From the NCBI GenBank assembly GCA_947629445.1, contig CANRDU010000004.1:8562-72561 (forward strand): 64,000 bases of DNA, in the 5' to 3' direction. The position numbers and the translations under genes are program-made. Origin of the DNA: an uncultured Bacilli bacterium (GTDB lineage: Bacteria; Bacillota_I; Bacilli_A; RF39; UBA660). The notes beneath the pieces were generated by a model that did not search any database, had not been told where the DNA came from, and saw only the letters and a program-made list of their open reading frames with translations. Below, piece after piece: positions 4,917 through 15,937 of this stretch. Position 1 is the first letter of the stretch, and the number at the start of each line of letters is the position of its first letter.

Positions 4917-5858
4917 TTATATTGTTTTTTTTAAATGATAAATATAATAAATATTGTCTATAATCGCATAATAGCTGTTTTGGTAATGAAATATATTGGA
5001 ATTATTATTTACGGCTATATTTATTAAATCTTTTAAACTAGTTAAATAGATAATATTATCCATATTAATATTAGGTTTCTTTTGAATAGTGATAATGATA
5101 TCTTGATAAGATTTTAAAATTGTCTTTTCATCATTTCTATAGAATAAAATTTTACTTATTAAATAAATAGTCGCTATAACTAAGATAATAAATACTATTA
5201 TTATTTTTAGATCAACATTTTGTTTATTATTTTCTAAAAAAGCATTCTCTTCTTTCATAGTGATTTCGATAATATTTTCGTTAAGAGGAATCACTAATTC
5301 CACATAAGGATTATCTTTATCATTAATTTGTACATTAAGTTTGATAGATAAATAACTTTCCGTTTTAATATTATAATATTCCTGGAAGGATTCAACATAA
5401 TTAACATAATATTGATAATCTAATTTGTAATTTTCAATTATATGAATTTCTCTTCCATCAATATTATTTATATTTTTTAAATTAAAATCTTTAGTCCAAA
5501 TTAATTTCGTGCCATTATCAGCATAACTTTTGATAGTAGCCGTCATATTATAAGAATAGTTAATATTTTCTTTCGTCTTGTCTTTTAAATAATAGTCAAA
5601 ATAAATATCAATATTTTTAATGGAATTTGCAATATAGTAATGATCAGATTCTAATGTATCTTTTAAAAAATAATTGTTAGGATTTAAAGTAACTTCATAA
5701 TATGTTTGGTTTTTGAATTGATATATATTGCTTTTTTGTATATTGTTATATGTATATATTACTCCTAAAAGAAGAATTCCTATAATAATACTAAAGAATA
5801 ATATCTTTATTTTTTTACTTTTTTCTTGCAATTTAATTCTCCTTCGCAAATAATTCAT
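4917..5858 (-). CDS. Two-TM membrane protein with a large extracytoplasmic domain (DUF5305-like by topology and context)
   Basis: N-terminal TM (ILFFSIIIGILLLGVIY), a ~190-aa external domain, a second TM (IIIVFIILVIATIYLISKILF) and a cytoplasmic tail. Its start overlaps the upstream sipW-like gene by 26 nt. The DUF5305 name is from memory of sipW neighbourhoods. Confidence 0.4.
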   Translation of the reverse strand: MNYLRRRIKLQEKSKKIKILFFSIIIGILLLGVIYTYNNIQKSNIYQFKNQTYYEVTLNPNNYFLKDTLESDHYYIANSIKNIDIYFDYYLKDKTKENINYSYNMTATIKSYADNGTKLIWTKDFNLKNINNIDGREIHIIENYKLDYQYYVNYVESFQEYYNIKTESYLSIKLNVQINDKDNPYVELVIPLNENIIEITMKEENAFLENNKQNVDLKIIIVFIILVIATIYLISKILFYRNDEKTILKSYQDIIITIQKKPNINMDNIIYLTSLKDLINIAVNNNSNIFHYQNSYYAIIDNIYYIYHLKKTI

Positions 5859-6924
5859 TTAACCAAATAGAAGGGTATCCTAAATATTTAAGAGAAAATT
5901 GATAAACACCTTTTATATCTTCTTTTTGAACTTTGATATAATCTACACTATTATTGGCATCTCCTTTGGTAACATAATAATCATTTATACTTACAACTCG
6001 GTGAACAATCATTTGATTTTGATATTGAAAGACAATAATATCCCCAGGAACGATATTTTCTTCTTTTTTATAAATGACAACATCGCCTCTTTTAAAAATG
6101 GGGTTCATACTATTGGACAAAATAGCGATAGGTTGATAAGTAAATAATCCAAGCATAAATAATACAAATAAAATAGATGCCATAATCGTGAAAGGAAGTA
6201 TTGTTCCTACATTCGTAAAATGATTTATCGTTCTTTTCCTAAAAATAAAGTATCTAAATAAATAGTAAATGATTAAAACTTTAATGATCCCAAAAGAACC
6301 TTCCATAAACCAATTACGATAGGGAATCATTGGTAAAATAATTTTCGGTATTTCCTGAAATACTTGAATAATTATAGAAACATTATAGTGTGAATTTAAA
6401 GATAAATAAGTAAATAGAATATTTTGAGCAATAATAGGGATAATTATGGAAATAAAATAATGAAAAAAAATGATATTCTGCGAAAAGAAAAGGGCTTTAA
6501 AATTAATTTCACTGAAAATAATGATAATGGTTACTAAAACTTTAAAACCAAAATAATTTTTGTTGCTTCTAAGCAGTTTATAGCGTATTATTTCAACACC
6601 ACATATCGGTAAGATAACTTTCCATATATTTATAAAAATATTAATGAATGAATAATTAGAAAAATTTTTCTGAAAGCCGAAAATAAAACCACTAATGAAA
6701 TAAAGTATAAAAAAGATAATGGATATAGTCAAAGTAGTATTCATTTCTTTTCTCTTGGAAAGTTTGAAATTTTGAGGATAAAAAATGATTAGAAAAATTA
6801 ACCAAAAAAGTGGCTTAAAAACATTCATATAAAAACGATTCGTATAAAAGAATATATGACTTATGGTATAGATGCTTAAAAGAAAAAATAAATGTTTATT
6901 TTTAAGCGTTTTCTTTTTGAACAT
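5833..6924 (-). CDS. sipW: SipW-type (archaeal/ER-type S26B) signal peptidase I fused to a ~235-aa N-terminal polytopic membrane domain
   Basis: The C-terminal ~125 aa carry SNSMNP (catalytic Ser box), IVHRV (His box) and KGDANN (Asp box). The N-terminal ~235 aa have about 7 hydrophobic helices and are absent from canonical ~190-aa SipW. Confidence 0.7.
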   Translation of the reverse strand: MFKKKTLKNKHLFFLLSIYTISHIFFYTNRFYMNVFKPLFWLIFLIIFYPQNFKLSKRKEMNTTLTISIIFFILYFISGFIFGFQKNFSNYSFINIFINIWKVILPICGVEIIRYKLLRSNKNYFGFKVLVTIIIIFSEINFKALFFSQNIIFFHYFISIIIPIIAQNILFTYLSLNSHYNVSIIIQVFQEIPKIILPMIPYRNWFMEGSFGIIKVLIIYYLFRYFIFRKRTINHFTNVGTILPFTIMASILFVLFMLGLFTYQPIAILSNSMNPIFKRGDVVIYKKEENIVPGDIIVFQYQNQMIVHRVVSINDYYVTKGDANNSVDYIKVQKEDIKGVYQFSLKYLGYPSIWLNELFAKEN

Positions 6925-7405
6925 ATTGAATTATCCCTGTTAATGTTTTGGTTTTCACATCAGGAATTTCCTTCGTATTTTTAACATAGGTTACTATGAT
7001 ATTAAAGGTAGTGGAATCCCCAACATTTAAGTCTTTTTTTAGTTCAGATGTTGTATAGTTAATTTCTTCAATTCCACCTATTTCTTCTGTGAATATTATC
7101 GTTTGTAATTCGGCATCAATAGTTCCTAAATTTTCTATGGTAACTTCATAAATGATTTCATCGCCAGGTTTATTCAGTTTAGCTGAAAAATTAATAGAAT
7201 CTTTAGTAAATGAAGGTGTTCCAGCATCGCAACCATCGGGCACTTGGGTAGCAGTTATATTTGTTATTCTGACGTCCCACTCACCAGTAATTTCGGCAGT
7301 TCCATCAATAGTAAAATCGGTTGCAAATGTCGAATAACCAACAGCCATTAAAATAATAGTTGCAAGAAAGAAGACAATGATAATGAATATTTTTTTGTTA
7401 TGCAA
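6902..7405 (-). CDS. Secreted TasA/camelysin-like beta-sandwich protein, probable SipW substrate
   Basis: TTG start 8 nt after aaggag. The signal peptide ends in GYSTFATDF (compare TasA GTWAAFND). INFSAKLNKPGDEIIYEVTIENLGT resembles TasA VNLSNLKPGDKLTKDFQFENNGS. First gene of the sipW operon. Confidence 0.55.
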   Translation of the reverse strand: MHNKKIFIIIVFFLATIILMAVGYSTFATDFTIDGTAEITGEWDVRITNITATQVPDGCDAGTPSFTKDSINFSAKLNKPGDEIIYEVTIENLGTIDAELQTIIFTEEIGGIEEINYTTSELKKDLNVGDSTTFNIIVTYVKNTKEIPDVKTKTLTGIIQYVQKENA

Positions 7406-7751: not shown

Positions 7752-7781
7752 AAAAAAACCTAGTTCCCGTTAAGAACTAGG
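7752..7781 (-). terminator. Rho-independent terminator of the 511-aa gene
   Basis: cctagttc / gaactagg stem; on the minus strand it is followed by T7. Confidence 0.7.
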
Positions 7782-7900
7782 TTATTTAATAAAAAATGGA
7801 GCAATTGTGTATCTCGTTTGAGAAACAATTACCTACAAATGTAATAAGAGATAAATCTTAATTACATACTCATTATATACTTAAACAAAAGATAATGCAA

Positions 7901-9436
7901 TTACTTCTCAGTATTATTTTTAATTAAATCTTTTATTTGATTTATGGATTTATTTATTTCTTTTATTTCATTATTATTAATTTCAATTTTAGTTTCTATA
8001 TTTTTTATTGAATTATCATTTTTATTTCTATATTCAAAAAATATACTTAATCCCAAAGCACCTATGGCAATAATAACTGATATAATTGAAATCCAAAATG
8101 AACTTTTAATATTATTAATATTGATTCTAAATTCATATTCTTTTTTTAAATCTAGCAATTGTTTATTATAATCATCATAAATATTTTTTATATTTTCAAA
8201 ACCTTTTATTATATATTCATCTTTATATTGAAATTTGTGAATATCAATACCATTAAATATGGAACTATATTTATGAAATTTTGAATTTAGTATTTCATAT
8301 TGCTTATAATTTTTTCTAATTTTATTAGTTTTGCAATTATACAACTTAATCTTTTCATTTGTAATATCTCCTTGCATCTCATCTAAAAGATAAAAGGCAA
8401 TAGAATTAATAAAAATATTTGTAAACTCATTACCAGTATGTTTTATTATATTTTCTTTTTCTTTAAGATAAAAAAGAACACTATTTGAACGATCTATTTT
8501 ATTTCGAGATATCATAATGTTGTACCACATAGTAGTATCAATGAACGAATCGCTTTCTCCACTTTTTCCAACACATACACTTATATTTTCAAGTTCTCTA
8601 GCTAAATAATGTTCTAATATTTCTAAATCTTGATAGAAAGATTCTGCTCTATTTGTTACTTTAAAGTTAGTTTGATATGTATTAATACTTATTGGTGGTT
8701 TATTTTTATAATCTAATTGAAGAGGTAGATATTTATTAAATAGTTTGTTGAATCTACATTTAAATTCTATAATAAAGTCTTCATAATCATTATTGCGTTT
8801 TTTCTTAACGGAAGTTCTGCTTCTACTATAAAGATACTTCTTTTTATATTTTAATTTATCATAAATAGTAGCTATATTTACTTTTTCATTAAATATATTG
8901 TTTATTTCGTTATTAAATTTTTCTGTAACTTTTAAATCAAAAGATATTCCTAAAAGGTCATTTGATATTTCAAAAATATGAATAATTATTAAATCACATA
9001 ATTCATATAGTTCATTATCCTTTGGTGATAATCTACATAATTCAGTACAACCATGATAGTTAGTTGAAGTTATATAACTATCTATACATTTTTTTAATTC
9101 TTTATGTCTAAGTTCTCCACCTAAATAGCCTTTTAAATAATTGTCTTTATATAGATTAATAATTCCTGGATATAAATTATGGCAATCATTTTTAGAAACA
9201 ATATTCAGTAAAAATATATCATTTAATCTTAAATATTTGTTTTTAGGCATGGTAGTATTTTTTTCATCATATGCTTTTTCAAAATTATCCTCCGTATATA
9301 GAAATTTTTCCATATCGGTTAATGGTATTATTTTTGATGTCTTATTTCTTATACTTTTTTTAATATTCATTACCTTATTTAAAAAAAGATTATCTTTATC
9401 TATTCTTTGCTTACTAAATTTATTTTTTATTTTCAT
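7901..9436 (-). CDS. Hypothetical 511-aa protein with one C-terminal TM helix and a coiled-coil tail
   Basis: Long ORF in extremely AT-rich DNA. TM SSFWISIISVIIAIGALGLSIFF lies near aa 445-467, followed by a 44-aa N/I/K-rich heptad-like tail. No catalytic motif recognised. Confidence 0.6.
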   Translation of the reverse strand: MKIKNKFSKQRIDKDNLFLNKVMNIKKSIRNKTSKIIPLTDMEKFLYTEDNFEKAYDEKNTTMPKNKYLRLNDIFLLNIVSKNDCHNLYPGIINLYKDNYLKGYLGGELRHKELKKCIDSYITSTNYHGCTELCRLSPKDNELYELCDLIIIHIFEISNDLLGISFDLKVTEKFNNEINNIFNEKVNIATIYDKLKYKKKYLYSRSRTSVKKKRNNDYEDFIIEFKCRFNKLFNKYLPLQLDYKNKPPISINTYQTNFKVTNRAESFYQDLEILEHYLARELENISVCVGKSGESDSFIDTTMWYNIMISRNKIDRSNSVLFYLKEKENIIKHTGNEFTNIFINSIAFYLLDEMQGDITNEKIKLYNCKTNKIRKNYKQYEILNSKFHKYSSIFNGIDIHKFQYKDEYIIKGFENIKNIYDDYNKQLLDLKKEYEFRININNIKSSFWISIISVIIAIGALGLSIFFEYRNKNDNSIKNIETKIEINNNEIKEINKSINQIKDLIKNNTEK

Positions 9437-9455
9437 TTCAAACCTCCCAATAATA

Positions 9456-9832
9456 TTATAAGTCTATATTCCACAAGCCAAGCTGTCCTTTAACTTCTTT
9501 ATCATTATTTATTTTTTTAGAATTAGTTAATTTCCAAGCATAACCAGTTCTATATTTAGAACCATATGCTATATTTTTTTCTGCAATTATTTTTTTGTTT
9601 AACTCATCATTTAATTCTAAACAATCTTCTATTTCTACTTCAGCTAGTATTTTTTTGATGGAAATTCTAAATTCAAATCCCTAAATTTTTCTAATTCTTT
9701 TTTATCAATTCCAGTTCCAGCATGAATTAGTATTTTGCCTCTATAATTGGTTTTCCAAGATCTAAATTCATATTTTTTTATACCTTCTGCAACAAGTGTA
9801 GCCCATGGTTGCTTTAAAGTTAATACTTTCAT
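9456..9832 (-). pseudogene. ASCH-domain gene interrupted by a frameshift at an A7 run
   Basis: The N-terminal 62 aa (MKVLTLKQPWATLVAEGIKKYEFRSW...ILIHAG) are a typical ASCH start and stop at 9644. The next frame continues IKKILAEVEIEDC...GYAWKLTNSKKI...VKGQLGLWNIDL to a stop at 9456-9458. One extra A in the run at about 9650-9656 would restore a ~125-aa ORF. Confidence 0.7.
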
Positions 9833-9895
9833 TGAACCACCTCAAAAACATTTTATCACAAATTCTTATAAAGGTTATTATATTACCTTGAATTA

Positions 9896-9904
9896 TGATA
9901 TAAT
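9896..9904 (+). promoter_or_regulatory. Extended -10 promoter element (TGaTATAAT) for the R-M operon
   Basis: tgatataat lies 26 nt upstream of the methyltransferase ATG. The -35 is weak. Confidence 0.4.
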
Positions 9905-9929
9905 TTATATGAGAGGATGGTGTCATATC

Positions 9930-10892
9930 ATGGAATTAAAAAAAATGAAATTTATCGATTTATTTGCTGGTATAGGTGGATTTAGATATGCACTAGAGTC
10001 TTTTGGATGTAAATGTGTTTTTTCATCTGAATGGGATAAATATTGTCAAGAAAGTTATAATTTAAATTTTGGAGAAATTCCATATGGAGATATAACAAAA
10101 ATAGATGAAAAAGATATTCCAAGTTTTGATATACTTTGTGCTGGTTTTCCATGTCAACCATTTAGTATTTCTGGAAAGCAAAAAGGATTTGAAGATACAA
10201 GAGGAACATTATTCTTTGATATAGTACGAATTGTTAGTTATCATAAACCTAAAATCATTTTTCTAGAAAATGTTAAAAATTTAAAAGCTCATAATGGTGG
10301 AGCAACTTTTGAAGTTATTTCAAAGACACTTGATAGTTTAAATTATAATATTTATCATAAAGTTCTAAATGCTAAAGATTTTAATTTACCACAAAACAGA
10401 GAAAGAATTACTATTATTTGTATAAGAAAGGATATTGATAATGGCAAATTCAAATTTCCAAGCCCATATAAAACATTTGCTACTATTAGTGATATAAAAG
10501 AGGATGATTCAATTACAAATAAATATATCCTTAATAGAAAAGATATCCATATAGACGAAAAAAAATTAAATGAAGCAATAAAAAATGGTAAAGTTCAAAA
10601 GCCTCTACAAATTGGGGTTATAGGGCAAGGTGGTCAAGGAAATAGAATTTACCACGAAAATGGCATAGGAATAACCCTAGCAGCTTCAAGTGGCGGTGCT
10701 GCTTCAAAAACAGGGGCTTACTATATTAATGGTAAGGTAAGAAAATTAAGTCCTAGAGAAGCCGCAAGATTACAAGGATTTCCTGAAAAGTTTAAGATAA
10801 TAGAAAATGACAATCAATCATTAAAGCAATTTGGTAATAGTGTACCAATTAACTTATTAAAAGAAGTTTTTAAAGGATTAAAAGATGTTTAG
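9930..10892 (+). CDS. DNA (cytosine-5)-methyltransferase, M.HhaI-like
   Basis: Motifs FAGIGG (I), GFPCQPFS (IV), ENV (VI), QNRER (VIII), GNSV (X). The region QIGVIGQGGQGNRIYHENGIGITLAASSGGAASKTGAYYINGKVRKL closely parallels my recollection of the M.HhaI TRD. RBS gagagga precedes the ATG at 9930; the ORF-track start at 9747 is an artefactual extension. Confidence 0.9.
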   Translation: MELKKMKFIDLFAGIGGFRYALESFGCKCVFSSEWDKYCQESYNLNFGEIPYGDITKIDEKDIPSFDILCAGFPCQPFSISGKQKGFEDTRGTLFFDIVRIVSYHKPKIIFLENVKNLKAHNGGATFEVISKTLDSLNYNIYHKVLNAKDFNLPQNRERITIICIRKDIDNGKFKFPSPYKTFATISDIKEDDSITNKYILNRKDIHIDEKKLNEAIKNGKVQKPLQIGVIGQGGQGNRIYHENGIGITLAASSGGAASKTGAYYINGKVRKLSPREAARLQGFPEKFKIIENDNQSLKQFGNSVPINLLKEVFKGLKDV

Positions 10893-10902
10893 GAGGATTA
10901 GA

Positions 10903-11739
10903 ATGAAAAAATGGGAAGATTTTGAAAATGAAATGACTGGATATTTACAACAAATGTTAAAAGATTATGATGTTTTAGTAAAGCAATATGGAAATGCTGA
11001 TAGTACAGTTCCAGACATAGAAATAACAATTAATTCAAATAATAAAAAGTTTTATGTAGAAATTAAAATGCCTGCATCTCAAACTTCTCAATTTGTTGTT
11101 GAAATAAAAAATGGTAAATTCGTTTATGGTAATAAAAATAAATTTAAAGAAAATCAATATTCTAATGAAATCATAGATATACTAAATGATAATTATAATT
11201 TATATAGTAAAGTTGCACAAACAGGTATGATTGTTCCTGTTCCTGAAACAATAGCATTTAGTTGGATTGCCTCAAATATGAAAAATAAAAATGTTGAATT
11301 TATAATTTCAGTAGATAATGATGGAAATAAAAAGATTTTCTCACTAGATCAATTTAATAAATTCTTTAACATTAAAACAATTTTTAGAAGAAAGAAAAGT
11401 GGAAGTCAAGATTTGCCTAAAACATATTATGATGATTTTAAAAAACATTTAGATTTAAAATTTTCAAAATATAAATATTCATTAAGTACCAATGGGAAAA
11501 AATTATATTTAGATTTACCTTTAGATTTAACTAAAAGTGAATGTTATATTGATAGTAATGTACTGCCAGAGGGAAAACGATACTTTCTATCAAATAAAAG
11601 AAATGGAAAGTATGAAGTAAAAATAACCTCAGCAACAAATAATCCAAATATTATCTTTGAATTGTCTTTAAAGGATGATGCTGATTTTGATATGTTTACT
11701 ATTCAATGTTTGATTGAATACATAAATAATAATATGTAA
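10903..11739 (+). CDS. Type II restriction endonuclease (PD-(D/E)XK) cognate to the m5C methyltransferase
   Basis: Begins 11 nt after the MTase stop, behind RBS aggagg. Has a PD-x14-EIK motif (VPDIEITINSNNKKFYVEIKM). 278 aa. Confidence 0.6.
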   Translation: MKKWEDFENEMTGYLQQMLKDYDVLVKQYGNADSTVPDIEITINSNNKKFYVEIKMPASQTSQFVVEIKNGKFVYGNKNKFKENQYSNEIIDILNDNYNLYSKVAQTGMIVPVPETIAFSWIASNMKNKNVEFIISVDNDGNKKIFSLDQFNKFFNIKTIFRRKKSGSQDLPKTYYDDFKKHLDLKFSKYKYSLSTNGKKLYLDLPLDLTKSECYIDSNVLPEGKRYFLSNKRNGKYEVKITSATNNPNIIFELSLKDDADFDMFTIQCLIEYINNNM

Positions 11740-11768
11740 AAAAGTGACTATAATTCGTAGTCGCTTTT
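11738..11768. terminator. Bidirectional terminator between the convergent REase and relaxase genes
   Basis: agtgacta / tagtcgct stem (one G-T pair) flanked by an A-run and a T-run. It overlaps the relaxase stop codon. Confidence 0.55.
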
Positions 11769-13160
11769 ATTTGTCATATAAAATTCTTCAGCTGCTTCGT
11801 TCATTTCTCTATTAATAGATTTAAGTGCTTTATTTATTTCTGATTTATTAATTGTTCTAGGTGGATTAAATATAACTCTATGTTCTTTATCAGTTATTAA
11901 GTTTTTATTATTCATATCATTAGCAATTTCTCTAAAAAATCTAGAAGTAGTTGGATTTTTGCTATTAGCATTTTTACATAGATAAGTTATAAAATCTTTT
12001 CTTTCATCCATTCTTTTATTCATAACTGCATGAACGAAATCTCTATCTTCTCTTAATTCAGTATTTTCCATTTTAAGCTTCTGATTTTCTTTAATGAGTT
12101 TATTATTATCATTTTCAACTTTATTATTTCTATCTTTTTGATATTTTAAATTATCATTAATTGAAGATATATTATTAATTATATTTTTATAATTATCAAA
12201 ATCATCAATTATAGATTCAACATCTTTAATTAAAGTTTGTAATCTTTCTTTTTGCTTATTATTAAGCTTATAACCACCAAGTCTAGATTCTTCTAAACCA
12301 GATAATAAATCTTGCAACTCTTTTGAAGAGTTGTTTATCGATTTTATCTTATCATTATTTTTATCAATACTTCTTTTATTAATTTCTAGTTCTTTTTTTA
12401 ATTCTTGATAATTAACCATATCTTTAACATAAATATCTTTATTTCTTCCTTTTTCTTTAGTCTTCAGAGTAGCATTTTCTTTTTCAAAGTATTTATTAAA
12501 AGTATTAATACATTTTTCTCTCATTATATTTTGTATATGCTCAAGTCTTTCTTTAGTAAATACTGATGATTTATTTACTTGCTTGTATAAACCCGTTTTA
12601 CAACCATCCTTGACGGGAACACCAACTATATGCATATGTGGGGAAGTTTCGTCTAAGTGTACAACAGCATTTGTTATTTTAAACTCTGGAACAACTTTTT
12701 CTAAATCGTGCAAATGTTCCTCATAAACACTAACCATTTCTCTTTTAAACTCAAAATCTTTTGAATCCCAATATTCTTTATTCCCAAGTTCAATTATAAT
12801 CTCACAAGCAAGATCCCTTTTTTCATCTTTATTAACATATTCAAAATAATCATTAATTCTTCTACTAGGTCTAGATTGTTTATTATTATATTCAAGTCTT
12901 GCTTTTTCAAATTCAGTTTTATAAAATTCTTTAACATCATAAACAATATCATTAGTCCCTTTTAATTGATAAATATAATCATTATCATTTTCATATTTTC
13001 TAAAATCATGATTATTAACTTTTGACAATTGATGATAATTTTGTATTCCATTATTTGCAAGAGAAGAAGAACCACTTACATTATTTCTGGCATTTCCTCT
13101 TGCTGATGCTTTTCTATTTTTATTACTTCCCAGATGAAATGAATAAGTTAATTCAGTCAT
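11748..13160 (-). CDS. mob: MobV-family (Pre/Mob) relaxase
   Basis: HLDETSPHMHIVGVP matches the HxDE...PHxH metal-binding motif of MOBV relaxases. The C-terminal half is long and coiled-coil, as in Pre/MobM. Confidence 0.8.
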   Translation of the reverse strand: MTELTYSFHLGSNKNRKASARGNARNNVSGSSSLANNGIQNYHQLSKVNNHDFRKYENDNDYIYQLKGTNDIVYDVKEFYKTEFEKARLEYNNKQSRPSRRINDYFEYVNKDEKRDLACEIIIELGNKEYWDSKDFEFKREMVSVYEEHLHDLEKVVPEFKITNAVVHLDETSPHMHIVGVPVKDGCKTGLYKQVNKSSVFTKERLEHIQNIMREKCINTFNKYFEKENATLKTKEKGRNKDIYVKDMVNYQELKKELEINKRSIDKNNDKIKSINNSSKELQDLLSGLEESRLGGYKLNNKQKERLQTLIKDVESIIDDFDNYKNIINNISSINDNLKYQKDRNNKVENDNNKLIKENQKLKMENTELREDRDFVHAVMNKRMDERKDFITYLCKNANSKNPTTSRFFREIANDMNNKNLITDKEHRVIFNPPRTINKSEINKALKSINREMNEAAEEFYMTNKSDYEL

Positions 13161-13276
13161 ATAATTCCTCCTTTTTAGTGTGGGCTGATATATCCCATAT
13201 CATGGTTATCCAAGATATATAACCCCCTAGATATCTTGTACAGCCTTCAGCCATACAAGATTTCGTGGACTAAGGA
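13161..13276 (-). other. Candidate oriT / mob promoter region
   Basis: 116-bp gap between the relaxase start and the recombinase stop. It contains the inverted repeat caagatat(12 nt)atatcttg, the palindrome gatatatc, and TAGTGTG, reminiscent of the pMV158-type nick region (from memory). Confidence 0.35.
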
Positions 13277-15112
<1,836 letters not shown>

Positions 15113-15130
15113 TTAAACCTCCTTATTACT

Positions 15131-15182
15131 AAAAAAGAGGAGACAATAGTATCTAGTAAGGTCTAAATACTACTGACTCCTC
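15131..15182 (-). terminator. Strong terminator-like hairpin immediately upstream of the recombinase gene
   Basis: On the minus strand: gaggagtcagtagtat(14 nt)atactattgtctcctc, 16 bp with one mismatch, followed by T6. It ends 19 nt before the recombinase ATG region. Confidence 0.5.
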
Positions 15183-15323
15183 ATTAAGTTCAATATTATA
15201 AAATTTTATATGTTTGTATTTATAATTCATAGATGTACCTCCATTTCTAGAGTTACCTCTTTCATTGGTTATTTATAATATCACTTTTTAAATATTTGTC
15301 AATTCCTTATTGAGGGAATACTA

Positions 15324-15605
15324 TTAAGAGCATTTAGCTAGTTTAAAGTATTTTTCAAGTTCAGATAAATTATGTTTATCATTTAGAGTATTAACATAGA
15401 AAGTATCAATTCCATTAAAGAACAAGAATGTATAATTATTAATAATTACTTTATGTGGATCTACATAAGCAAGATTAGATGGTTCTAATCTAATTAAATG
15501 ACCTTTTTCTAATCTTATAGATGTAGAAGTATAATTCTTAGCCCAATCAATCTTTTTCTTTAAATCAGGGCTTAAATCAAGTTTTTCTTTAATAATATTT
15601 AACAT
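15324..15605 (-). CDS. Hypothetical small protein (93 aa from the ATG at 15605)
   Basis: The ORF is open to 15629, but that GTG abuts the tRNA terminator T-run. The internal ATG (MLNIIKEKL) is more plausible. Confidence 0.4.
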   Translation of the reverse strand: MLNIIKEKLDLSPDLKKKIDWAKNYTSTSIRLEKGHLIRLEPSNLAYVDPHKVIINNYTFLFFNGIDTFYVNTLNDKHNLSELEKYFKLAKCS

Positions 15606-15629
15606 ATCATCACAACCTTTCTTAGACAC

Positions 15630-15656
15630 AAAAAAACTTAATTATTTCTAATTAAG
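15630..15656 (-). terminator. Terminator of tRNA-Gly
   Basis: cttaatta / taattaag stem followed by T7 on the minus strand, 40 nt downstream of the tRNA 3' end. Confidence 0.6.
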
Positions 15657-15695
15657 CTTTATCTCAACATCGGTTGTTCCGACGATTTTTACAAA

Positions 15696-15769
15696 TGGAG
15701 CGGGTGATGGGAATCGGACCCACGTTATCAGCTTGGAAGGCTGGAGTTCTACCATTGAACTACACCCGC
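15696..15769 (-). tRNA. tRNA-Gly (anticodon UCC), CCA encoded
   Basis: The reverse complement GCGGGTGTAGTTCAATGGTAGAACTCCAGCCTTCCAAGCTGATAACGTGGGTCCGATTCCCATCACCCGCTCCA folds as a cloverleaf with anticodon loop CTTCCAA. It is very similar to Bacillus tRNA-Gly(UCC). Confidence 0.9.
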
Positions 15770-15782
15770 ATCAACAACTATA

Positions 15783-15811
15783 ATTATACTTAGAACTCTA
15801 GCCTTTGTCAA
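15783..15811 (-). promoter_or_regulatory. Consensus sigma-A promoter for tRNA-Gly
   Basis: Minus strand TTGACA, 17 nt spacer, TATAAT, ending about 13 nt upstream of the mature tRNA 5' end. Confidence 0.75.
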
Positions 15812-15937
15812 GACTAAATTTTAAATTTAAAGAAACTTATATTTGCTATTTTTCTTCTTCTAATAAAATGAGAAAATCAGTTCTAAACTTTTATTCCATT
15901 CATATAGTTTATTGTAGAAAGGAATGAAATATCATTT

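What the first reader, a model, noticed from the sequence alone, without database searches (positions are those of the whole stretch)
7901..9832. ASCH-domain gene coupled to an unrecognisable 511-aa membrane-anchored protein, divergent from an R-M system: candidate novel defence module
Seen in the sequence:
- Two co-oriented minus-strand genes. The ASCH reading frame ends at 9456-9458, only 20 nt before the start (9436) of the 511-aa ORF.
- The pair has its own terminator (7752-7781).
- It is transcribed divergently from the m5C-MTase/REase operon across a 97-bp control region.
- The 511-aa protein has no catalytic motif I can recognise. It has one C-terminal TM helix (about aa 445-467, nt 8036-8104) followed by a 44-aa Asn/Ile/Lys heptad-like tail.

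Established knowledge: ASCH is a PUA-like fold that binds RNA or modified nucleobases, and unknown genes wedged next to R-M systems on mobile elements are enriched for anti-phage functions.

Inference: a sensor (ASCH) plus membrane effector pair, possibly of the abortive-infection type.
Basis: partly seen in the sequence, partly recalled or inferred. Interest (0 to 1): 0.75.

Follow-up and report, generated by a model that had tools for sequence, protein, structure and literature searches.

The report
Orphan membrane protein beside restriction systems
A 511-residue protein held in the membrane by its tail belongs to a small, unannotated family from uncultured gut and rumen Bacilli that repeatedly sits next to restriction and other anti-phage genes, so it is a reasonable but untested new defence candidate, and the ASCH gene beside it is broken here and is not needed by the family.

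Summary
The ASCH frame is broken by a one-base loss in an A-run. The hairpin terminator lies outside the mobile element and is the displaced terminator of the tRNA-Gly gene the element inserted into.

The pair is the last cargo of a 7.9-kb element (window 7794-15701). The element also carries a serine recombinase, a Mob relaxase and an m5C restriction-modification system.

The 511-aa protein matches no Pfam, NCBIfam or PADLOC model. It has about 90 representatives among 1.84 billion proteins. Almost all are 460-545 aa with one C-terminal membrane helix. It evolves under purifying selection (dN/dS about 0.1).

Nine of 17 distinct contexts place it within a few genes of restriction-modification or PADLOC-listed systems.

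ASCH sits 20 nt upstream in only some lineages. It was lost or decayed at least four times while the 511-aa gene stayed intact.

Foldseek links the full-length model weakly to the CorA channel architecture. The globular domain alone has no confident structural neighbour.

Verdict: a plausible autonomous candidate defence gene from an unrecognised family. The ASCH-sensor pairing is not supported as obligatory.

The parts
7757..7783 (-). Terminator-like hairpin plus T-run, 118 nt downstream of the 511-aa stop. It lies outside the mobile element and is probably the displaced terminator of tRNA-Gly.
   Evidence: 12-bp stem; 1 found against 0.2 expected. (homology with related elements ends at 7794-7797).
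7794..7802 (.). Distal copy of the 9-bp direct repeat AAATGGAGC (att core), marking the end of the element. An imperfect inverted repeat lies next to it at 7803-7830.
   Evidence: 4 copies in the window against 0.46 expected; two of them bound the element..
7901..9436 (-). 511-aa protein, held in the membrane by a C-terminal helix, from an unannotated family (called c0 in the full report). This is the focus of the finding.
   Evidence: no family match. (homologues). (AF2 model, pLDDT 82). (dN/dS about 0.1).
8036..8104 (-). The single C-terminal transmembrane helix (aa about 445-467). S453 and A457 are invariant; I456 and A460 are nearly invariant.
   Evidence: alignment A1. (one hydrophobic segment in 50 of 52 family members).
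7904..8035 (-). 44-aa Asn/Ile/Lys-rich tail after the membrane helix. It is modelled as a helix at low confidence and is not conserved in the family.
   Evidence: pLDDT 45-66. (tail length 0-52 aa).
9437..9455 (-). Spacer between the ASCH stop codon (9456-9458) and the 511-aa start, carrying the ribosome-binding site GGGAGG. It is conserved in all cassettes.
9456..9832 (-). ASCH gene, frameshifted (pseudogene or sequencing error). One A is missing from the run at 9650-9656. Orthologues encode an intact 125-aa protein with the GxKxxExR motif.
9833..9929 (.). 97-bp divergent intergenic region between ASCH and the m5C MTase. Only the roughly 40-70 nt next to ASCH travel with the cassette in other elements.
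9930..10892 (+). Cytosine-5 DNA methyltransferase.
   Evidence: PF00145, 3.7e-99. (PADLOC MTase_II, 4e-119).
10885..11739 (+). Type II restriction endonuclease.
   Evidence: PADLOC REase_II, 8.4e-38.
11748..13160 (-). Mob/Pre-type relaxase.
   Evidence: PF01076, 7e-13.
13277..15112 (-). Large serine recombinase.
   Evidence: Resolvase 1.8e-33, Recombinase 7.7e-17, Zn_ribbon_recom.
15324..15605 (-). Small conserved ORF (about 93 aa, coordinates approximate) between the tRNA end and the recombinase. It is present in all related elements. Function unknown.
   Evidence: cluster c4. (sequence).
15693..15701 (.). Copy of the 9-bp direct repeat next to the tRNA (att core).
15696..15769 (-). tRNA-Gly (TCC), the integration target of the element.

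Best explanation
The 511-aa protein is an autonomous, single-gene accessory function. It is carried as terminal cargo on a 7.9-kb integrative mobilisable element (serine recombinase + Mob relaxase + m5C R-M) inserted at tRNA-Gly, and elsewhere it sits in defence islands. It is most likely an anti-phage or anti-mobile-element protein.

Shown:
- It is a real, selected gene of a small unannotated family.
- The family has a fixed architecture: about 440-480 cytoplasmic residues (a basic N-terminal helix, a large alpha/beta domain and three long helices), then one C-terminal transmembrane helix.
- It recurs next to R-M and other defence systems.
- It does not depend on ASCH.

Inferred:
- The cytoplasmic domain senses an infection cue.
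- The long stalk helix that runs into the membrane helix lets several copies assemble through the conserved small-residue face (S453/A457/A460).
- The assembly perturbs the membrane, giving an abortive-infection-like outcome. This is loosely analogous to CorA-type funnel channels.

ASCH is a facultative neighbour or accessory gene of mobile elements. It is co-transcribed with the 511-aa gene in some lineages and is non-functional in this window.
For: Real gene and real family:
- 34 clusters at 39-97% identity, nearly all 487-530 aa.
- 90 representatives among 1.84e9 proteins.
- dN/dS 0.09-0.15 for close pairs, including lineages with a defective ASCH.
- In L032 the ASCH remnant is only about 65% identical to the window at nucleotide level, while the 511-aa gene is 84-95% identical.

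Architecture:
- AF2 model with pLDDT 82 and pTM 0.75. Helix 407-470 runs into the membrane segment.
- One C-terminal hydrophobic segment in 50 of 52 members, down to 14% identity.
- S453 and A457 are invariant within the membrane helix.

Defence context. Nine of 17 distinct contexts have R-M or PADLOC-listed genes within a few genes:
- m5C R-M in the window and L001.
- N6_N4 MTase + REase_II 7e-82 in L035/L042.
- ApeA + type I R-M + GmrSD in L007.
- MmeI + PD-T4-6-like kinase in L012.
- PbeA-like SNF2 + MutH + PDC-M49A-like in L017/L018.
- Type III REase 1e-129 + PDC-M36A in L021.
- Dam MTase + PDC-M33A/B/C in L044.
- PDC-M49A 8e-198 in L040.
- R-M + bSEFIR 9e-69 in L028.

Mobile cargo:
- Element bounds and tRNA target.
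- A more distant homologue sits in an HTH_17-DUF6076-homologue-integrase element.

ASCH independence.

CorA-like architecture: all top 50 Foldseek PDB hits of the full-length model are CorA (E from 2e-4, probability 0.6-1.0, at least 0.85 for 48 of them). The top BFVD hits are CorA-like proteins.
Against: - There is no experiment, and no sequence or profile link to any validated defence protein: PADLOC gave 0 hits.
- The argument rests on guilt by association. This is confounded because mobile-element cargo sits next to defence genes for many reasons, including anti-defence, exclusion and element competition.
- The CorA resemblance is weak: TM-scores are 0.14-0.34 and rmsd 15-20 A.
- The globular domain alone (aa 60-400; pLDDT 88) has no PDB neighbour below E 1e-3. 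The best is the CorA N-terminal domain at E 0.028, probability 0.33.
- Some contexts are not defence-like. A 60%-identical homologue lies among acetyl- and glycosyltransferases (L043). A 28%-identical one is the last gene of a polysaccharide-synthesis operon (L045).
- No conserved catalytic motif was found.
- Eight of the 17 contexts show no recognised defence gene.
Confidence: 0.45

Rival explanations
1. One reading: ASCH is the sensor (of RNA or a modified base) and the 511-aa protein is its membrane effector, forming an obligate two-gene abortive-infection system.
For: - ASCH lies 20 nt upstream on the same strand, with a conserved ribosome-binding site, in at least 9 loci.
- The cassette is joined to five different upstream neighbours: m5C R-M, N6_N4 R-M, a serine recombinase directly, other ORFs in L034, and another REase in L028.
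- The pairing also occurs in the most divergent member examined, L028, at 42% identity.
- ASCH-fold proteins can act in defence, for example the BapA 5hmC glycosylase (PMC13160076).
Against: - There is no ASCH in L007, L012, L017, L021, L027, L030, L038, L039, L040, L043 or L044.
- There were four independent ASCH losses in the window's clade while the 511-aa gene stayed intact under purifying selection.
- L007 and L038 carry a different upstream partner, a 184-192-aa protein with a C-terminal membrane helix.
- Similar small ASCH proteins sit in phage and plasmid replication modules without this partner.
- ASCH is frameshifted in this very window.
Confidence: 0.12
2. The protein serves the mobile element itself rather than host immunity. 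It would act as a membrane-anchored factor for mobilisation, entry or surface exclusion, or competition between elements.
For: - It always sits at the att-distal end of tRNA-Gly serine-recombinase elements that also carry a Mob relaxase.
- Relaxase-like genes are nearby in L027 and L040 (the relaxase assignment is by eye only).
- An integrase is adjacent in L012 and L048.
Against: - It is also present in chromosomal defence islands with no relaxase or recombinase in view (L007, L044, L021).
- It is absent from 72,556 plasmids, 50,697 phage genomes and IMG/VR.
- Related elements swap the R-M module but keep this cassette, which is how cargo behaves rather than core transfer machinery.
Confidence: 0.15
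3. The family has a cell-envelope role, such as polysaccharide or cell-surface assembly or its regulation. The defence-island neighbours would then reflect only that both kinds of gene sit in variable regions.
For: - A 28%-identical homologue lies 29 nt after the last gene of a glycosyltransferase / flippase / pyruvyl-transferase operon (L045-L047).
- A 60%-identical homologue lies downstream of glycosyl-, acyl- and acetyltransferases (L043).
- One database protein fuses a GT4 N-terminal half to the C-terminal 115 residues of this family (P0034).
Against: - These are 2-3 cases against 9 defence contexts.
- In L043 the gene is separated from its upstream neighbours by 750 nt.
- P0034 is a single contig joined at a shared FNGIDI microhomology, so it may be a chimera.
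- The large domain is cytoplasmic (no signal peptide, one C-terminal helix), which does not suit an extracytoplasmic assembly factor.
Confidence: 0.08
4. ASCH and the 511-aa protein form a toxin-antitoxin-like addiction module that stabilises the element. The membrane protein would be the toxin and ASCH the antitoxin.
For: The layout fits: a small upstream gene and a larger downstream membrane protein on a mobile element.
Against: An essential antitoxin cannot be lost while the toxin stays intact and under selection. Yet ASCH is frameshifted, decayed, truncated or absent in four lineages that keep an intact 511-aa gene.
Confidence: 0.04

Closest known systems
CorA/Mrs2/ZntB divalent-cation channels, and the CorA-type membrane effectors linked to type III CRISPR signalling (the latter from my own knowledge, not tested here)
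   Same: The overall order of parts matches: a cytoplasmic alpha/beta domain, then long helices, the last of which continues into a transmembrane helix. All top 50 Foldseek PDB hits of the full-length model are CorA chains (E from 2e-4). The top BFVD hits are CorA-like.
   Different: - One transmembrane helix instead of two.
- No GMN motif.
- No shared Pfam PF01544 match across 52 members: one member at E 0.035.
- TM-scores of 0.34 or less.
- The alpha/beta region is about 260 aa, against roughly 170 in CorA (the CorA figure is from my own knowledge). On its own it finds the CorA N-terminal domain only at E 0.028.

This is an architectural resemblance. Membership is not shown.
Single-gene and effector-type membrane proteins of abortive-infection systems, such as lactococcal Abi membrane proteins and the transmembrane effectors of CBASS, Pycsar and retrons (own knowledge)
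   Same: It is a defence-island and mobile-element gene encoding a cytoplasmic domain joined to a membrane segment. It is carried next to R-M systems.
   Different: No PADLOC model matches. It has a single C-terminal anchor rather than N-terminal or multi-pass segments. No signalling enzyme is conserved next to it.
Stand-alone ASCH-domain proteins (Pfam PF04266; for example the Zymomonas ASCH ribonuclease cited in PMC13160076; ASCH as a modified-DNA-binding module in PMC10853773)
   Same: The neighbouring gene matches Pfam ASCH and carries the GxKxxExR motif, seen as GIKKYEFR. It is about 125 aa, as in many phage and plasmid ASCH proteins.
   Different: It is frameshifted in this window. No activity or ligand can be assigned. 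It is not fused to a nuclease, unlike the defence-linked ASCH fusions described in PMC10853773.
Mobilisable transposons and integrative mobilisable elements with a large serine recombinase plus a Mob/Pre relaxase (Tn4451/Tn4453 type; own knowledge)
   Same: It has a large serine recombinase and a Mob_Pre relaxase, a small size (7.9 kb), a short direct repeat at the ends, and accessory cargo between the core genes and the far end.
   Different: The cargo is an R-M system plus the ASCH / 511-aa cassette rather than antibiotic resistance. It integrates at the 3' end of tRNA-Gly. Relatedness to TnpX/TnpZ was not tested.

Membership tests
CorA metal-ion transporter family (PF01544) | Significant match to the Pfam CorA profile | tested here: not met
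   No match for the window protein. Among 52 family members only one matches, at E 0.035.
CorA metal-ion transporter family (PF01544) | Two C-terminal transmembrane helices | tested here: not met
   One hydrophobic segment in 50 of 52 members. The window protein has aa 449-467 only.
CorA metal-ion transporter family (PF01544) | GMN signature at the end of the first membrane helix | tested here: not met
   The sequence around and after the helix reads ...GLSIFFEYRNKND... There is no GMN in any aligned member at that position.
CorA metal-ion transporter family (PF01544) | Fold: N-terminal alpha/beta/alpha domain, helical stalk and pore helix, superposable on solved CorA structures | tested here: inconclusive
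   Full-length model: all top 50 PDB hits are CorA, E 2e-4 to 2e-2, but TM-scores are 0.14-0.34. Domain-only model: best hit is the CorA N-terminal domain at E 0.028, probability 0.33, TM 0.14-0.17.
CorA metal-ion transporter family (PF01544) | Pentameric assembly | not testable with these tools
   No multimer prediction is available.
Known anti-phage defence protein families (PADLOC-DB v2.0.0) | Match to any model of a known or candidate defence protein | tested here: not met
   0 families at E <= 0.1 for the 511-aa protein.
Defence-island gene (operational definition: recurrent location next to known defence systems) | Homologues in unrelated contexts lie within a few genes of R-M or other recognised systems | tested here: met
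   9 of 17 distinct contexts. No matched random-gene control was run.
Defence-island gene (operational definition) | Protects against phage or foreign DNA when expressed | not testable with these tools
   This needs an experiment.
ASCH domain (PF04266), for the upstream gene | Pfam ASCH match above the gathering score | tested here: met
   30.3 bits against a cut-off of 21.2 for the 5' piece. 36.6 bits for the intact orthologue in L001.
ASCH domain (PF04266), for the upstream gene | GxKxxExR motif | tested here: met
   GIKKYEFR at aa 19-26 in the window and in all orthologues. The motif definition is from my own knowledge.
ASCH domain (PF04266), for the upstream gene | Intact open reading frame in this window | tested here: not met
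   One-base deletion in the A-run at 9650-9656. The HMM match is split over two frames. A sequencing error cannot be excluded.
Obligate two-gene system (ASCH + 511-aa protein) | The two genes co-occur throughout the family and decay together | tested here: not met
   ASCH is absent from 11 contexts. It was lost or decayed four times while the partner stayed intact and under selection.
Type II toxin-antitoxin module | The upstream antitoxin is indispensable while the toxin is intact | tested here: not met
Integrative mobilisable element with serine recombinase and Mob relaxase | Recombinase + relaxase + defined ends with a target-site repeat | tested here: met
   (Resolvase/Recombinase; Mob_Pre). 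(ends at 7794 and 15701; 9-bp direct repeat). (tRNA-Gly target).

The most novel reading that the evidence does not exclude
The family is a previously unrecognised class of immune effector-sensors anchored by a C-terminal membrane helix. A cytoplasmic domain with no solved structural relative detects infection directly. Through a CorA-like stalk it drives several single membrane helices together into a pore that collapses the membrane potential. In some lineages the co-transcribed ASCH protein tunes the system by binding or processing a nucleic-acid cue.
Probability: 0.2. Interest if true: 0.7.

Novelty: new variant of a known kind. Interest (0 to 1): 0.45.

Why it matters
If the protein is a defence gene, it would add a single-gene, membrane-acting system from a barely studied group, the uncultured gut and rumen Bacilli/Mollicutes-like bacteria. 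Its sensor domain has no recognisable relative. It would also give a compact case of one-helix-per-subunit pore formation.

The 7.9-kb tRNA-Gly element shows how small mobilisable elements shuttle interchangeable defence cargo: the R-M module is swapped while the cassette is kept.

The value is limited at present. The evidence is contextual, the family is small and taxonomically narrow, and hundreds of comparable candidates already exist.

Tried and rejected
Searches that found nothing for the 511-aa protein:
- Pfam, NCBIfam and PADLOC gave no match. PHROGs gave one negligible hit at E 0.009.
- A profile search of PDB sequences gave only noise.
- Pfam on 52 family members found no shared family.
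- tblastn against phage and plasmid collections, and a scan of IMG/VR, found no relatives.
- The search for related loci with the wide alignment A2 failed for lack of conserved stretches, so A1 was used instead.

Checks on the CorA lead:
- A domain-only structure (aa 60-400) was made to get a cleaner fold assignment. The model is confident (pLDDT 88) but has no PDB neighbour below E 1e-3. The CorA link is therefore not strengthened.
- I looked for a CorA gene in the held sequences to build a profile-profile test, using an E. coli CorA sequence recalled from memory. Nothing was found, and I did not pursue it.

Motifs considered and rejected:
- PD-(D/E)xK nuclease, from the conserved E224-x-K226. 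Rejected because those residues lie in a long helix, 210-236.
- Walker A, from GKSG at aa about 290. Rejected because the pattern is incomplete and not conserved.

Other rejections:
- Promoter calls: hexamer matches are no more frequent than in shuffles.
- The toxin-antitoxin reading and the obligate-pair reading: rejected on the ASCH loss pattern.

Literature searches for ASCH plus anti-phage and for CorA plus defence islands gave background only.
Full report
**1. Observation**

The 511-aa ORF is at 7901-9436 (-).

Upstream on the same strand is an ASCH gene.
- Its 5' piece (9644-9832) matches Pfam ASCH at E 7e-7.
- Its 3' piece continues in another frame to the stop at 9456-9458.
- An HMM built from intact orthologues covers positions 1-61 and 55-125 in the two frames.
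- A DNA alignment shows that one A is missing from the run at 9650-9656: A7 here, A8 in L022, AAAAAGAA in L031.
- Whether this is a mutation or a homopolymer sequencing error cannot be decided. The other eight runs of 7 or more in the element's genes are in frame.

Other points that hold:
- The 20-nt spacer carries a GGGAGG ribosome-binding site.
- The m5C MTase starts at ATG 9930, which gives the 97-bp divergent gap.
- MTase and REase are confirmed.
- A single hydrophobic segment lies at aa 449-467, followed by a 44-aa tail.

**2. The pair is the last cargo of a mobile element, and the terminator is not its own**

- BLASTN against related loci shows homology from window 7794-7797 up to about 15770-15830.
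- Seven aligned loci are near-identical up to ...CAATTGCTCCA and unrelated beyond it.
- The 9-mer AAATGGAGC occurs at 7794-7802 and 15693-15701.
- The repeat at 15693-15701 overlaps the 3' end of tRNA-Gly(TCC) at 15696-15769.

The element is therefore 7794-15701 (7.9 kb), integrated at the tRNA's 3' end. Its genes, in order from the tRNA, are: a small ORF, a large serine recombinase, a Mob_Pre relaxase, the REase and MTase (on the other strand), ASCH, and the 511-aa gene.

The hairpin at 7783-7757 lies in the flank. It is most simply the tRNA gene's displaced terminator. Other insertions are followed by different hairpins.

**3. The 511-aa protein (called c0 below)**

No Pfam, NCBIfam or PADLOC model matches it. 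PHROGs gives one negligible hit.

Family size and hosts:
- A word-indexed search found 34 clusters at 39-97% identity, nearly all 487-530 aa, named only 'hypothetical protein' from Bacilli MAGs.
- An exhaustive profile search of 1.84 billion representatives found 90 at E <= 1e-3. Most of the full-length ones are 460-545 aa.
- Only 7 of 185,579 species-representative genomes carry it. They are Bacilli, Mollicutes or Mycoplasmatota MAGs from rumen and gut.
- None of 52 members shares a Pfam family.
- It is absent from the phage, plasmid and IMG/VR collections.

Selection: the gene is clearly under purifying selection, with dN/dS of 0.09-0.15 for close pairs.

Sequence features:
- 50 of 52 members have exactly one strong C-terminal hydrophobic segment (two of them also have a weak internal segment just above threshold).
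- Inside the membrane helix, S453 and A457 are invariant, and I456 and A460 are nearly invariant. This suggests helix-helix packing rather than a mere anchor. That reading is an inference.

**4. Structure**

The full-length AF2 model has pLDDT 82 and pTM 0.75. It shows a basic N-terminal helix, an alpha/beta region (aa 69-332), helices 335-367 and 370-396, and a long helix 407-470 that runs into the membrane segment.

- Foldseek against the PDB returns only CorA chains in the top 50 (E 2e-4 to 2e-2, probability 0.6-1.0). However, TM-scores are 0.14-0.34 and rmsd 15-20 A.
- BFVD gives CorA-like phage proteins weakly.
- A separate model of aa 60-400 is confident (pLDDT 88, pTM 0.86). It has no PDB neighbour below E 1e-3. 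Its best hit is again a CorA N-terminal domain, at E 0.028 and probability 0.33.

Together with one membrane helix instead of two and no GMN motif, this means the protein is not a CorA family member. The resemblance is at the level of architecture and is only suggestive.

**5. Genomic contexts**

I examined 17 distinct contexts of the close family (at least 38% identity). Nine have R-M or PADLOC-listed genes within a few genes:

| Locus | Neighbouring systems |
|---|---|
| window / L001 group | m5C R-M |
| L035 / L042 | N6_N4 MTase + REase_II (7e-82) |
| L007 | ApeA_NTD1, type I R-M, GmrSD |
| L012 | MmeI + PD-T4-6/mad6-like kinase + integrase |
| L017-L020 | m5C MTase, PbeA-like SNF2, MutH, PDC-M49A-like |
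| L021 | type III REase (1e-129) + PDC-M36A |
| L044 | Fic, Dam MTase, PDC-M33A/B/C, m5C MTase |
| L040 | PDC-M49A (8e-198) |
| L028 | MTase, REase, bSEFIR (9e-69) |

Contexts that are not defence-like:
- L043: acetyl- and glycosyltransferases, with a 750-nt gap before the gene.
- A 28%-identical relative closes a polysaccharide operon in L045.
- Other distant relatives sit in an HTH_17-DUF6076-homologue-integrase element and next to a DUF559 gene.

No matched random-gene control was run, so the enrichment is qualitative.

**6. ASCH**

Evidence that the cassette is real:
- Intact 125-aa ASCH genes lie 20 nt upstream of c0 in the L001 group, L022, L026, L029, L031, L034, L035, L036 and the distant L028.
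- The shared DNA begins only about 40-70 nt upstream of ASCH and is joined to five different neighbours.

Evidence that ASCH is dispensable:
- ASCH is absent from eleven other contexts.
- L007 and L038 have a different upstream partner, a 184-192-aa protein with a C-terminal membrane helix.
- In a neighbour-joining tree, ASCH-bearing loci form two related clades plus the far outlier L028.
- Within the window's clade ASCH was inactivated four separate ways: frameshift (window), many indels and substitutions (L024/L032/L033), 5' deletion (L025), and absence, with only c0 and 24 nt upstream shared (L030).
- In L032 the ASCH remnant is about 65% identical to the window while c0 is 84-95% identical, and c0 dN/dS stays near 0.1.

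c0 therefore works without ASCH. This argues against both an obligate sensor-effector pair and a toxin-antitoxin pair.

Small ASCH proteins of this type are common in phage and plasmid replication and DNA-metabolism modules, near methyltransferases, without a c0 partner. ASCH-fold proteins can bind modified DNA or act in defence on their own (PMC10853773, PMC13160076). ASCH may therefore be an independent accessory gene.

**7. Most likely mechanism**

Shown: c0 is a selected, membrane-anchored protein with a large cytoplasmic domain. It is carried as mobile cargo, recurs in defence islands, and is independent of ASCH.

Inferred: it is a single-gene anti-phage or anti-mobile-element function. 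Its cytoplasmic domain senses infection, and its stalk and membrane helix assemble into a membrane-perturbing oligomer.

I put about 0.55 on a defence role and about 0.3 on this particular mechanism, which gives 0.45 for the statement as framed. The rivals are given separately: an element-serving or exclusion function, an envelope role, the obligate ASCH pair, and a toxin-antitoxin module.

**8. Novelty and score**

The family is unannotated, and its globular domain has no recognisable structural relative. The kind of thing, a candidate defence gene found by association on a small mobile element, is familiar. The evidence is contextual, and the family is small and confined to uncultured hosts.

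Interest: 0.45.

Noticed in passing
window 7794-15701: A complete 7.9-kb integrative mobilisable element sits at the 3' end of tRNA-Gly(TCC), bounded by the 9-bp direct repeat AAATGGAGC. Related elements keep the recombinase, the relaxase and the ASCH / 511-aa cassette but swap the R-M module (m5C type II here; N6_N4 MTase plus a different REase in L035/L042; none in L036).
   Followed up: yes
window 4917-7405 (-): Just outside the element, also in low-GC DNA (23-26%), lies an operon of three genes: a DUF5305 protein (313 aa), a SipW-like signal peptidase with a long multi-pass N-terminal extension (363 aa), and a small secreted protein with a DUF11/DUF7507-like repeat (167 aa). It looks like a TasA/SipW-type surface-fibre or matrix module.
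   Followed up: partly
window 8300-9400, compared with L035/L036: Mosaic divergence. ASCH and the membrane-helix/tail end of the 511-aa gene are 90-94% identical in DNA between the window and L035/L036. The central cytoplasmic part of the 511-aa gene is only 61-83% identical. This suggests allele exchange or faster evolution of the presumed sensor domain.
   Followed up: partly
L001 12106-15766: A second serine-recombinase element lies directly next to the first. It carries another ASCH gene (129 aa) flanked by a 287-aa multi-pass membrane protein and a 104-aa ORF that looks like a nucleoside deoxyribosyltransferase. ASCH is thus again next to a membrane protein, but in a different arrangement. 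Roseburia phage Shimadzu also has a deoxyribosyltransferase and a methyltransferase near its ASCH.
   Followed up: no
L007 9409-9963; L038 821-1399: In the 62-63%-identity subclade the gene directly upstream of the homologue is not ASCH. It is a 184-192-aa coiled-coil protein with its own C-terminal transmembrane helix. L039 has a similar 188-aa protein with a C-terminal membrane helix just downstream.
   Followed up: partly
P0034 / L053 123-998: A 291-aa predicted protein joins the N-terminal half of a GT4 glycosyltransferase to the last 115 residues (stalk end, membrane helix and tail) of this family. The junction is at a shared FNGIDI motif. It occurs on a single 4.3-kb metagenome contig. 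It may be an assembly chimera or a real recombinant.
   Followed up: partly
L028 2722-4163: In the Mycoplasmatota MAG the homologue is split into two ORFs (150 + 303 aa), while its ASCH, MTase, REase and a bSEFIR gene are intact. This is the reverse of the decay seen in the window.
   Followed up: no
window aa 1-45 of the 511-aa protein (nt 9302-9436): The extreme N-terminus is unusually conserved for a region modelled at low confidence: MKIKNKFSK..., with K27, R30, P38 and E43 invariant. It is a very basic helix and could bind nucleic acid or membrane, or be a regulatory peptide.
   Followed up: no
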